Shown here one piece after another: positions 6,051 through 6,286 of a stretch of DNA of 64,000 nucleotides (its first letter is position 1; every line of letters starts with the position of its first letter). The DNA lies in the NCBI GenBank assembly GCA_031274895.1, contig JAISPM010000021.1, forward strand, positions 141 to 64,140, in the 5' to 3' direction. The DNA comes from Alphaproteobacteria bacterium. Lineage in GTDB: Bacteria > Pseudomonadota > Alphaproteobacteria > WRAU01 > Hepatincolaceae. Under the pieces are notes generated by a model. That model ran no database searches. It was not told the origin of the DNA and saw only the letters and a program-made list of their open reading frames with translations. The position numbers and the translations under genes were made by a program.

Positions 6051-6159
6051 TAATAAACAGCAGAATACCTCTCTTAAACTGAATTATGACCATAGACCAA
6101 TACAGCCACAGTTGAGTTCAGGTCATTGAAGTTTAAGAGAGGTATTCTGCTGTTTATTA
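6051..6159. repeat. Type-C nested palindrome C1 (29-bp perfect arms, 51-nt core in + orientation)
   Basis: Arms 6051-6079 and 6131-6159 are exact reverse complements. The core 6080-6130 is tgaattatgaccatagaccaatacagccacagttgagttcaggtcattgaa. Confidence 0.9.
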
Positions 6160-6171
6160 CCGCTTTCATTA

Positions 6172-6286
6172 TAGTTTTATGGACTAAATATACTACTTTC
6201 AACTTCAATGACCTAATCCGTTTAATAGATATATTGGTCTATGGTCATAATTCAGTTGAAAGTAGTATATTTAGTCCATAAAACTA
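6172..6286. repeat. Type-C nested palindrome C2 (32-bp perfect arms, 51-nt core in - orientation)
   Basis: Arms 6172-6203 and 6255-6286 are exact reverse complements. The core 6204-6254 is the reverse complement of tgaattatgaccatagaccaatatatctattaaacggattaggtcattgaa. Confidence 0.9.

What the first reader, a model, noticed from the sequence alone, without database searches (positions are those of the whole stretch)
6051..6286. Tandem nested palindromes after phoU: unrelated perfectly paired 29/32-bp arms around one conserved 51-nt core in opposite orientations
Seen directly:
- C1 has arms 6051-6079 and 6131-6159 (29/29 complementary) enclosing 6080-6130.
- C2 has arms 6172-6203 and 6255-6286 (32/32 complementary) enclosing 6204-6254.
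- The two arm sequences are unrelated to each other.
- The two 51-nt interiors are the same element in opposite orientation: tgaattatgaccatagaccaata-[17 variable nt]-aggtcattgaa.

This is the reverse of MITE/IS/REP logic, where the termini are conserved and the interior varies.

The 29-34-bp arms contain no mismatches and no G:T pairs. That points to a DNA-level generating or correcting mechanism, such as fold-back copying, hairpin-primed synthesis or intra-element gene conversion, rather than an old RNA helix.

Because the cores are antiparallel, the loop of C1 can pair with the loop of C2 on one strand (23 + 11 nt). This allows an alternative kissing or four-way fold.
Basis: seen in the sequence. 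Interest (0 to 1): 0.72.

Follow-up and report, generated by a model that had tools for sequence, protein, structure and literature searches.

The report
Hairpin mini-repeats nested in terminator palindromes
An uncultured, AT-rich alphaproteobacterium carries at least five copies of a small hairpin-shaped DNA repeat that seems to sit at the tip of the ordinary stem-loops marking gene ends, an unusual but explicable variant of bacterial "junk" repeats.

Summary
C1 and C2 have 29- and 32-bp perfect arms around a 51-nt core, in opposite orientations.

- C3 at 7546-7662
- C4 at 7687-7799
- C5, a diverged copy, at 13829-13931

All five share these features:
- A 49-nt interior of the form 5'-GAMTT / 6-bp covarying stem / 27-nt loop / 6-bp / KGA-3'.
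- Stems of 27-34 bp. All 156 stem pairs are Watson-Crick.

The arms are not wholly unrelated. The inner 10-16 bp follow a family consensus. Only the outer 11-22 bp are locus-specific.

Every copy lies just behind a stop codon. Three of them carry terminator-type A/T tracts. The closest syntenic relative has no such repeat. It has an ordinary 14-bp-arm terminator starting at the same offset after phoU.

Best reading (confidence about 0.45): a tiny non-autonomous hairpin element nested at the apex of gene-end terminator palindromes. Perfect pairing would come from recent insertion and/or DNA-level template switching.

No match was found in Rfam, phages, plasmids, or pattern scans of genome, metagenome and viral collections. 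No transposase lies in the window, and no empty site could be obtained.

I rate it a new variant of a known kind, of moderate interest.

The parts
6051..6079 (.). C1 left arm. The outer part TAATAAACAGCAGAA(TA) is locus-specific. The inner part CCTCTCTTAAAC follows the family consensus.
   Evidence: 29/29 complementary to 6131-6159. It starts 16 nt after the phoU stop at 6034, the same spacing as the terminator in relative L024.
6080..6130 (+). C1 core: T + 49-nt interior (GAATT ATGACC 29-nt loop GGTCAT TGA) + A
6131..6159 (.). C1 right arm, ending in TTTATTA
6172..6203 (.). C2 left arm
   Evidence: 32/32 complementary to 6255-6286. The inner ATATACTACTTTCAAC is homologous to the C4 arm.
6204..6254 (-). 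C2 core, in inverted orientation
   Evidence: The first 23 and last 11 nt equal C1. The middle 18 nt match C4 at 17/18 (sequences listed, realigned).
6255..6286 (.). C2 right arm. It ends 12 nt before the stop codon of the DUF347 gene (6299-7525, - strand).
7546..7578 (.). C3 left arm, with an A5 tract at its outer end
   Evidence: 33/33 complementary to 7630-7662. The A5/T5 tracts are terminator-like.
7579..7629 (-). C3 core (ATGAGC/GCTCAT version of the inner stem)
7630..7662 (.). C3 right arm, with a T5 tract at its outer end
7687..7717 (.). C4 left arm
   Evidence: 31/31 complementary to 7769-7799
7718..7768 (+). C4 core
7769..7799 (.). C4 right arm. It overlaps the stop codon and the last two codons of the SH3-domain gene (7792-8313, - strand).
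13829..13855 (.). C5 left arm. It begins 12 nt after the stop of the epimerase gene (12833-13816, + strand).
   Evidence: 27/27 complementary to 13905-13931. Gene identified.
13856..13904 (-). C5 49-nt interior, a diverged family member. On the - strand it reads GACTT CAAGCC (27 nt) GGCTTG GGA.
   Evidence: Same 5/6/27/6/3 register as the other copies. The unpaired GAnTT / nGA is conserved. Four of the six inner-stem pairs are changed on both sides. The primary-sequence HMM does not detect it.
13905..13931 (.). C5 right arm
   Evidence: An identical sequence is present in the independent Logan contig L030.
13932..13941 (+). T-rich tail TTTGTTTTTC directly after the C5 hairpin, on the strand of the upstream gene
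   Evidence: 8 of 10 bases are T. With the outer stem it forms a canonical intrinsic terminator.

Best explanation
**What it is.** The window holds five members of a lineage-specific hairpin repeat. The conserved unit is about 70-83 nt and has two parts:
- A 49-nt asymmetric apical module: 5'-GAMTT, a 6-bp stem that covaries, a 27-nt loop, the 6-bp partner, KGA-3'.
- About 10-16 bp of inner stem on each side, with consensus ..TA-C(n)YTTYAAAC.

**Where it sits.** Each unit lies exactly at the tip of a different local palindrome of roughly 12-22 bp per arm. Each palindrome lies immediately behind a stop codon, and several have the A-tract/T-tract signature of an intrinsic terminator.

**Proposed mechanism.** I propose that the unit is a tiny non-autonomous mobile element that lands in, or only survives in, the apex of gene-end terminator palindromes.
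- The unit is itself a hairpin. Insertion therefore only lengthens the terminator stem and leaves its base and U-tail intact, so it is nearly harmless in a compact genome.
- The outer arms differ between loci because they are the host's own terminators.
- They pair perfectly because they were already palindromes.
- The seamless junctions, the absence of any mismatch or G:T, the mosaic similarity of neighbouring copies and the two core orientations all point to DNA-level copying. This could be recent insertion and/or template switching between inverted-repeat arms. Template switching is known to homogenise arms, expand them and invert the spacer.

**Shown:** copy number, architecture, the conservation gradient, position behind stop codons, the T-tails, absence from relatives, and an ordinary terminator at the equivalent place in the relative.

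**Inferred:** mobility, preference for the hairpin apex, template switching, and retained terminator function.
For: - Five copies have an identical 49-nt interior length and perfect stems of 27-34 bp.
- The inner 6-bp stem covaries as ATGACC/GGTCAT, ATGAGC/GCTCAT and CAAGCC/GGCTTG. The unpaired GAnTT / nGA is conserved even in the diverged C5.
- Inner arms are homologous for C2-C4 (z = 4.8, p < 0.0005) and C1-C3 (p = 0.015). The outer parts are at or near chance (p = 0.03 to 0.9).
- All copies lie 0-16 nt behind a stop codon. C3 lies behind C4, about 80 nt upstream of the likely DUF347 start.
- Removing the unit restores plain hairpins. C5 is then followed by TTTGTTTTT, C3 carries A5/T5 tracts, and C1 ends in TTTATTA.
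- The syntenic relative L024 (PhoU 79% identical) lacks the repeats. It has a 14-bp-arm, 7-nt-loop terminator beginning 16 nt after the phoU stop, the same spacing as C1. A second terminator lies behind its DUF347 gene, where C2 sits in the window.
- Relatives and the window itself carry perfect gene-end palindromes with 12-17-bp arms.
- Precedent for palindrome-targeted insertion comes from IS1397, ISKpn1, IS621 and ISPpu9/10 inserting into REP sequences (PMC1525189).
- Precedent for arm homogenisation, arm expansion and spacer inversion by template switching comes from the abstracts of PMC8604942 and PMC13100816.
- Neighbouring copies share a 23-29-nt tract of the core that non-neighbours lack.
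Against: - No empty site is available. The nearest relative is too diverged for intergenic alignment.
- No terminator-loop remnants or target duplications are visible at the inner junction, so an exactly central insertion or a later correction has to be assumed. If correction is assumed, it is odd that the 5-nt/3-nt internal loop survived in all five copies.
- The outer arms of C2 and C4 have no T-tail in the direction of the upstream gene.
- The restored palindromes (14-22 bp) are somewhat longer than the 12-17 bp seen in relatives.
- Weak residual similarity of the outer arms (C1-C3 p = 0.034, C2-C4 p = 0.09) could mean the whole arm belongs to the element.
- No transposase, RAYT or integrase lies in the 64 kb.
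- Only five copies are known, all from one organism and one sample.
Confidence: 0.45

Rival explanations
1. The whole 105-117-nt hairpin is the mobile or replicating unit. Only one arm plus the core is copied, and the other arm is re-synthesised from it. This would work by fold-back or rolling-hairpin-like copying, or by continuous intra-hairpin conversion. The stems would then always be perfect, and the outer stem, which nothing recognises, would drift quickly.
For: - All 156 stem pairs are Watson-Crick even though the cores differ by about 20% between copies.
- Conservation decays from apex to base.
- The outer arms show marginal similarity: C1-C3 p = 0.034, C2-C4 p = 0.09, and both C2 and C4 begin with TAGTT.
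- The core occurs in both orientations, as in flip/flop hairpins.
Against: - No two of the five copies share outer arms.
- No target duplication flanks the hairpins (flanks).
- The terminator-type tails and tracts at C5, C3 and C1, and the match to the relative's terminator position, would be coincidence.
- No such mechanism is known for chromosomal bacterial repeats.
Confidence: 0.2
2. Palindrome growth. A short-stemmed unit was inserted anywhere in intergenic DNA, and its stem was later lengthened outward by replication template switching. That process copies one flank, inverted, onto the other side.
For: - Template switching between inverted-repeat arms is reported to homogenise and expand arms and to invert the spacer (PMC8604942 and PMC13100816).
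- The right outer arm of C4 contains the stop codon and last codons of the SH3 gene, so one arm is demonstrably local sequence.
- Beyond the perfect arms of C1 and C3, complementarity continues at a lower level (51 nt at 82% and 43 nt at 91%).
Against: - It needs five independent rare events of similar extent (11-22 bp).
- It does not explain the A/T tracts or the T-tail outside the C5 palindrome.
- The same process should have erased the conserved 5/3-nt internal loop.
Confidence: 0.15
3. The hairpins are functional RNA elements. Possibilities are terminator or stabiliser hairpins with a protein-binding apical module, or shRNA-like precursors cut by RNase III (or a host nuclease) into small duplexes whose variable sequence acts as a guide.
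For: - The RNA hairpins are very stable.
- The asymmetric internal loop is conserved and the stem covaries.
- All copies lie at gene 3' ends.
- The organism's relatives have genomes of about 1.4 Mb, which suggests host association.
Against: - The core is in sense orientation to the upstream gene in three copies and antisense in two.
- There are no G:U pairs in 156 bp.
- No Rfam family reaches threshold. The only hits are generic plant-miRNA and long-hairpin models far below gathering score.
- The arms match nothing elsewhere in the window, in phages or in plasmids.
- No expression data are available.
Confidence: 0.1
4. The hairpins are folded single-strand recombination sites of the integron attC type, or sites for another structure-specific recombinase.
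For: The apex resembles the attC layout, as recalled from established knowledge of attC..AAC / unpaired spacer / short paired box / variable top / box / spacer / GTT.. Three of the five copies have AAC...GTT at that position.
Against: - The AAC/GTT boxes lie inside a 27-34-bp perfect stem, not at its base.
- There are no extrahelical bases.
- Core orientations alternate.
- Two sites lie back to back with no cassette between them.
- The flanked DUF347 gene sits at the same syntenic position in a relative that has no such sites.
- No integrase is present in the window.
Confidence: 0.04
5. The hairpins are an assembly or library artefact, such as inverted chimeras.
For: The contig comes from a metagenome. 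Logan contig L002 breaks inside C2.
Against: - Five loci share a conserved, covarying core.
- C1 and C5 are reproduced base-for-base in independently assembled Logan contigs.
- The break in L002 is what a k=31 assembly graph would be expected to produce at a 32-bp inverted repeat (my inference; the k value was not shown by any tool).
Confidence: 0.01

Closest known systems
Palindrome-targeting insertions: IS1397, ISKpn1, IS621 and ISPpu9/10 in REP sequences
   Same: A mobile element lands inside a pre-existing extragenic palindrome, so the halves of the host palindrome end up flanking it (PMC1525189).
   Different: Those are full insertion sequences of 1-2 kb with transposase genes, and their targets are a conserved REP family. 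Here the insert is about 70-83 nt, non-coding and itself a hairpin. The targets appear to be unrelated terminators. No transposase has been identified.
REPINs / REP-BIME elements (RAYT-associated)
   Same: They are short intergenic hairpin-forming repeats close to gene ends, and compensatory maintenance of the hairpin is seen. The window also contains a classical-looking REP doublet with a CGTC head at 58144-58250.
   Different: In REPINs the arms (the REPs) are conserved genome-wide and the spacer is free. Here the apex is conserved and the stem base is locus-specific. The arms are not themselves small palindromes, and there is no conserved GTAG/CGTC head.
Bacterial MITEs (Correia/NEMIS, ERIC, RUP, BOX and others)
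   Same: They are non-coding, under 200 nt, have terminal inverted repeats, fold into a hairpin and lie in intergenic DNA, often near terminators.
   Different: There is no visible target-site duplication. The unit is much smaller. The stems are perfectly paired and extend into unique sequence. No related insertion sequence is known.
Quasipalindrome correction / inverted-repeat template switching
   Same: It explains perfect arms, arm expansion, spacer inversion and local homogenisation (PMC8604942, PMC13100816 and PMC5941160).
   Different: It is a mutational process, not an element family. It does not explain the conserved asymmetric apical module or the placement behind stop codons.
Integron attC sites
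   Same: Both are structure-defined hairpins with short conserved boxes, an unpaired spacer and a variable top, 57-141 nt in size.
   Different: See the membership test. The boxes are in the wrong place, and there are no extrahelical bases, no cassette array and no integrase.

Membership tests
REPIN / REP (RAYT-mobilised) | Arms are copies of one conserved REP sequence, each an imperfect palindrome with a GTAG or CGTC head; the spacer is variable. | tested here: not met
   Outer arms differ between all five copies. The arms contain no internal REP-like palindrome. GTAG occurs at the arm end in only C4 and C5 (flanks). The apex, not the arms, is conserved.
REPIN / REP (RAYT-mobilised) | A RAYT (Y1 transposase) gene is present in the genome. 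| not testable with these tools
   None was found among the window's ORFs scanned against Pfam.
MITE | Terminal inverted repeats are conserved among copies. | tested here: inconclusive
   The inner 10-16 bp of the stem are conserved (C2-C4 z = 4.8). The true termini of the unit cannot be fixed with five copies.
MITE | A direct target-site duplication flanks the element. | tested here: inconclusive
   No direct repeat flanks the whole hairpins. A TA lies 9-12 nt from the interior in all five copies. It could be a palindromic TA duplication, but TA is common in 35% GC DNA.
MITE | A parent insertion sequence has matching ends. | not testable with these tools
   No insertion sequence lies in the window. 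Pattern scans of genome, metagenome and viral collections returned only chance hits without arms.
Integron attC | R''(RYYYAAC) / R'(GTTRRRY) boxes pair at the base of the hairpin; extrahelical bases lie in the L box. | tested here: not met
   AAC/GTT occurs in 3 of 5 copies but at the inner end of a 27-34-bp perfect stem. The 6-bp box is perfectly paired with no bulged bases.
Integron attC | An array of promoterless cassettes lies next to intI/attI. | tested here: not met
   No integrase is present. C1/C2 and C3/C4 are back to back. The DUF347 gene is syntenic in L024, which has no such sites.
Intrinsic terminator | A short G+C-rich stem with a 3-8-nt loop, followed by a U-tract. | tested here: inconclusive
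   As they stand, the hairpins have 49-nt interiors, so the simple scan misses them. The outer stems plus tails of C5, C3 and C1 are terminator-like. Those of C2 and C4 are not.
Any Rfam RNA family | Score at or above the family's gathering threshold. | tested here: not met
   Only tRNA-Gly and a TPP riboswitch pass in the window. In E-value mode the hairpins hit only plant miRNA and generic hairpin models at 18-44 bits, against thresholds of 65-200.

The most novel reading that the evidence does not exclude
The 49-nt module with its conserved unpaired GAMTT/KGA nucleotides could be the recognition handle of an as yet unknown structure-specific machinery. One version is a new class of ultra-small mobile DNA that targets hairpin apices or builds its own perfectly paired arms from flanking DNA. 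The other is a family of shRNA-like transcripts in a host-associated bacterium, whose variable 27-34-bp duplexes are processed into small RNAs.
Probability: 0.12. Interest if true: 0.75.

Novelty: new variant of a known kind. Interest (0 to 1): 0.45.

Why it matters
If the nested-insertion reading holds, this would be one of the smallest bacterial mobile elements, at about 70-83 nt. It would exploit terminator hairpins as a safe landing place: the insert extends the stem instead of breaking it.

That would explain how selfish DNA can persist in compact, host-associated genomes. It would also explain how unusually long, perfectly paired gene-end hairpins arise.

The conserved asymmetric internal loop with a fully covarying stem is a concrete handle for finding the protein that moves or binds the element.

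The complete absence of mismatches offers a natural test case for intrastrand template-switch repair in an uncultured lineage.

If it is merely a local repeat family, it still matters for annotation. Gene callers can place spurious ORFs across such repeats; mechanical ORF listing gives one here at 6126-6281. One independent assembly (Logan contig L002) also breaks inside C2.

Tried and rejected
**Collection and database searches**
- Exact core pattern scans of genome contigs, metagenome contigs and viral contigs. All 22 external hits lacked complementary flanks and are chance matches.
- Rfam at gathering thresholds and in E-value mode. No family was found.
- Arms as spacer-like or guide-like sequences, searched by blastn against phages and plasmids and by Hamming scan of the window. 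Nothing exceeded the shuffled controls.
- nhmmer with a core HMM against the window and about 78 kb of non-redundant sequence from relatives. It found only C1-C4.

**Attempts to reach more copies in the same genome**
- I used the open reading frame that runs through the antisense core (F-N-[FK]-N-[DE]-L...H-N-S) as a protein query.
- The word-indexed search gave nothing.
- The full HMMER search of 1.84 billion representatives gave 0 hits.
- A search with the ChlI fragment of the relative, meant to find the neighbouring contig of the window's organism, returned only distant fragments.

**Comparative attempts**
- Exact-protein look-ups gave only the same sample, SRR14710915.
- The DUF347 product, as I delimited it, is not on record.
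- Long-hairpin scans of relatives L024-L029 found none of these repeats.

**Readings considered and rejected**
- A mini-ORF in the core (MTIDQYSHS, MSINRCIY and similar). It has no ribosome-binding site and is absent from C5.
- An outward promoter (TTAATA-18-CATAAT on the antisense core). It is present in only two copies and points in inconsistent directions.
- A k-turn or loop-E reading of the internal loop. The sequence does not fit.
- A retron, omega-RNA or bridge-RNA reading. No reverse transcriptase, TnpB or IS110 gene lies nearby.

**Literature**
- The Elhai 2008 paper on cyanobacterial small dispersed repeats is not held in the library.

Full report
**1. What is in the sequence**

The region downstream of phoU (5381-6034, PhoU domain) contains the two hairpins as described.
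- C1 has arms 6051-6079 and 6131-6159 (29/29) around 6080-6130.
- C2 has arms 6172-6203 and 6255-6286 (32/32) around 6204-6254.

The first and last core bases (T and A) also pair, so the unpaired interior is 49 nt in both. The cores are the same sequence in opposite orientation. Shuffled controls give zero matches for the core. Each hairpin folds at -56 to -60 kcal/mol, with z between -12 and -13.5.

**2. More copies exist**

The core pattern also matches at 7579-7629 (-) and 7718-7768 (+).
- These two copies, C3 and C4, have perfect arms of 33 and 31 bp.
- A window-wide scan for perfect inverted repeats found a fifth hairpin, C5. Its arms are 13829-13855 and 13905-13931 (27 bp), again with exactly 49 nt between them.
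- C5 is not detected by a primary-sequence HMM. On its minus strand, however, it has the same register as the others: GACTT CAAGCC (27 nt) GGCTTG GGA, against GAATT ATGASC (27-29 nt) GSTCAT TGA.
- In C5 the unpaired nucleotides are conserved, and four of the six inner-stem pairs are changed on both sides.
- C1 and C2 (ACC/GGT) differ from C3 and C4 (AGC/GCT) by another compensated pair.
- Across the five copies all 156 stem pairs are Watson-Crick.

**3. The arms are only partly unrelated**

I aligned the arms anchored at the core.
- C2 and C4 are clearly homologous: ATATACTACTTTCAAC against ATATACTG-TTTTAAC, whole-arm z = 4.8.
- C1 and C3 are moderately similar (p = 0.015).
- C5 shares the TATAnT..TTT motif.
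- With the 16 nt nearest the core removed, similarity drops to p = 0.03-0.09 for those two pairs and to chance for all other pairs.

The family unit is therefore the 49-nt interior plus about 10-16 bp of stem. The outer 11-22 bp are locus-specific.

The cores are mosaic.
- C1 and C2 share the first 23 nt.
- C2 and C4 share 17 of the middle 18 nt.
- C3 and C4 share the first 26 of 28 nt.

Physical neighbours thus share a tract that non-neighbours lack. This suggests local conversion.

**4. Context**

The window is a housekeeping stretch of chromosome. It includes pstSCAB-phoU, tsaD, pta-ackA, cysS, gltX and dnaA-dnaN-recF-gyrB. The organism is an AT-rich (35.5% GC) uncultured alphaproteobacterium (source names).

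Every copy sits behind a gene end:

| Copy | Position relative to the gene end |
|---|---|
| C1 | 16 nt after the phoU stop |
| C2 | 12 nt after the DUF347 stop |
| C4 | overlaps the stop of the SH3-domain gene |
| C3 | just downstream of C4, about 80 nt upstream of the likely DUF347 start |
| C5 | 12 nt after the epimerase stop |

No transposase, RAYT, integrase or reverse transcriptase is encoded in the 64 kb.

**5. Relatives**

The closest relative on record is L024, with PhoU 79% identical. It is syntenic: pst-phoU-(CMD)-DUF347-SH3 and onward. It has none of these hairpins.
- It has an ordinary palindromic terminator (14-bp arms, 7-nt loop) that starts 16 nt after the phoU stop. C1 starts at the same spacing in the window.
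- A second terminator lies behind its DUF347 gene, where C2 sits in the window.

More distant relatives (L025-L029, PhoU 55-60% identical) also lack the repeats. They have perfect gene-end palindromes with 12-17-bp arms and short loops. The window has one of its own at 14048-14086, with 16-bp arms.

**6. Terminator signature of the outer arms**

Deleting the conserved unit computationally leaves plain hairpins.
- C5 is followed directly by TTTGTTTTT, 8 of 10 T, on the strand of the upstream gene.
- C3 carries A5 and T5 tracts.
- C1 ends in TTTATTA.
- C2 and C4 lack such tails.

**7. Interpretation**

The simplest account is as follows. A very small hairpin-shaped, non-autonomous element has been planted at the apex of gene-end terminator palindromes.
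- The host palindrome supplies the unrelated but perfectly paired outer arms.
- The element supplies the conserved inner stem and apical module.
- Such an insertion only lengthens the stem and keeps the stem base and U-tail in place. It is therefore tolerated in a compact genome.

Palindrome-targeted insertion has precedents in IS1397, ISKpn1, IS621 and ISPpu9/10, which insert into REP sequences (PMC1525189).

Several features indicate DNA-level copying:
- There are no loop remnants at the junction.
- There is no mismatch or G:T pair.
- Neighbouring copies are mosaic.
- The core occurs in both orientations: the same as the upstream gene in three copies and opposite in two.

Template switching between inverted-repeat arms is reported to homogenise arms, expand them and invert the spacer (PMC8604942 and PMC13100816). 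Recent insertion is an alternative source of the perfect pairing.

The conserved 5-nt/3-nt internal loop has not been 'corrected' in any copy. This argues that the apical module is under selection, most plausibly as a protein recognition site.

**8. What remains open**

I could not obtain an empty site, further copies or the rest of the genome.
- Pattern scans of three public collections gave only chance hits.
- Peptide-based attempts to reach other copies failed.
- Exact-protein look-ups led only to the same sample.

Three DNA-level models therefore cannot be separated rigorously: nested insertion, regeneration of the whole hairpin, and outward palindrome growth. I weight them 0.45, 0.20 and 0.15.

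An RNA function gets 0.10. It is disfavoured by the mixed orientation, the lack of G:U pairs, the absence of any Rfam match and the absence of targets for the arms.

An attC-like role fails several defining features (see the membership test). An artefact is very unlikely, because independent Logan contigs reproduce C1 and C5 exactly.

**9. Verdict**

The proposed de novo generation of arms is less likely than nesting in pre-existing terminators. The kissing fold is not favoured.

This is a new, lineage-restricted variant of bacterial palindromic intergenic repeats, of moderate interest.

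Noticed in passing
window 58144-58250: A perfect 27-bp inverted repeat (CGTCATACCAGCGAAGGCTGGTATCCA) lies around a 53-nt A/T-rich spacer, 8 nt after the gyrB stop. 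Each arm is itself a small G+C-rich palindrome with a CGTC head, so it looks like a REP doublet (REPIN-like; compare the title of PMC3733652). It overlaps the start of the mechanically listed ORF 58128-58808, which has no Pfam match.
   Followed up: partly
window 21177-21357: A G+C-rich element has 27-bp perfect terminal inverted repeats (AATTCCCCTTCGCTGGCGAAGGGGTGG) and a 127-nt interior. It fills the gap between gltX and cysS. In relative L025 these two genes abut with no spacer, so the element looks like an insertion.
   Followed up: partly
window 13754-13766 (-), 13937-13949 (+), 14016-14028 (+): The 13-mer TTTTCACAATATC occurs three times around C5 and nowhere else in the window (expected 0.36 by chance). 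One copy, inverted, lies inside the 3' end of the epimerase gene. The other two lie downstream of the hairpin, 79 nt apart. This could be a local duplication, a template-switch product or an operator-like site.
   Followed up: partly
window 12303-12414 vs L030: The Logan contig from SRR14710915 is identical to the window over 5037 nt except for 16 substitutions. All 16 cluster in a 112-nt patch of the M48 peptidase gene. This indicates strain-level recombination or heterogeneity in the sample.
   Followed up: partly
window 49794-50966: An Abi_2 (abortive-infection-like) gene sits between dnaA (48293-49669) and dnaN (51041-52156). This interrupts the usual dnaA-dnaN adjacency.
   Followed up: no
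window 34869-37040: A 723-aa SIR2_2 + TPR protein, which looks defence-like, is encoded next to tRNA-Gly (37299-37373).
   Followed up: no
window 44698-45643, 54770-55618, 58897-59748: A small ORF followed by an M78/IrrE-type peptidase, plus two Bro-N domain proteins, are scattered among the replication genes. They may be remnants of mobile elements or prophages.
   Followed up: no
window 31937-32471: Two small overlapping ORFs of 82 and 93 aa lie in an otherwise ORF-poor 1.1-kb gap. Their arrangement resembles a toxin-antitoxin pair. This was not tested.
   Followed up: no
window 6035-6298 vs L024 10658-11208: The relative has a CMD (carboxymuconolactone decarboxylase family) gene between phoU and DUF347. 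This gene is absent from the window, where C1 and C2 occupy the gap.
   Followed up: partly
window 6126-6281 (+): A 51-aa ORF listed mechanically runs through the right arm of C1 and the antisense core of C2. The same frame is open through the antisense core of C1-C4 (..FN[FK]N[DE]L......HNS..). It is almost certainly spurious but could mislead gene callers.
   Followed up: yes
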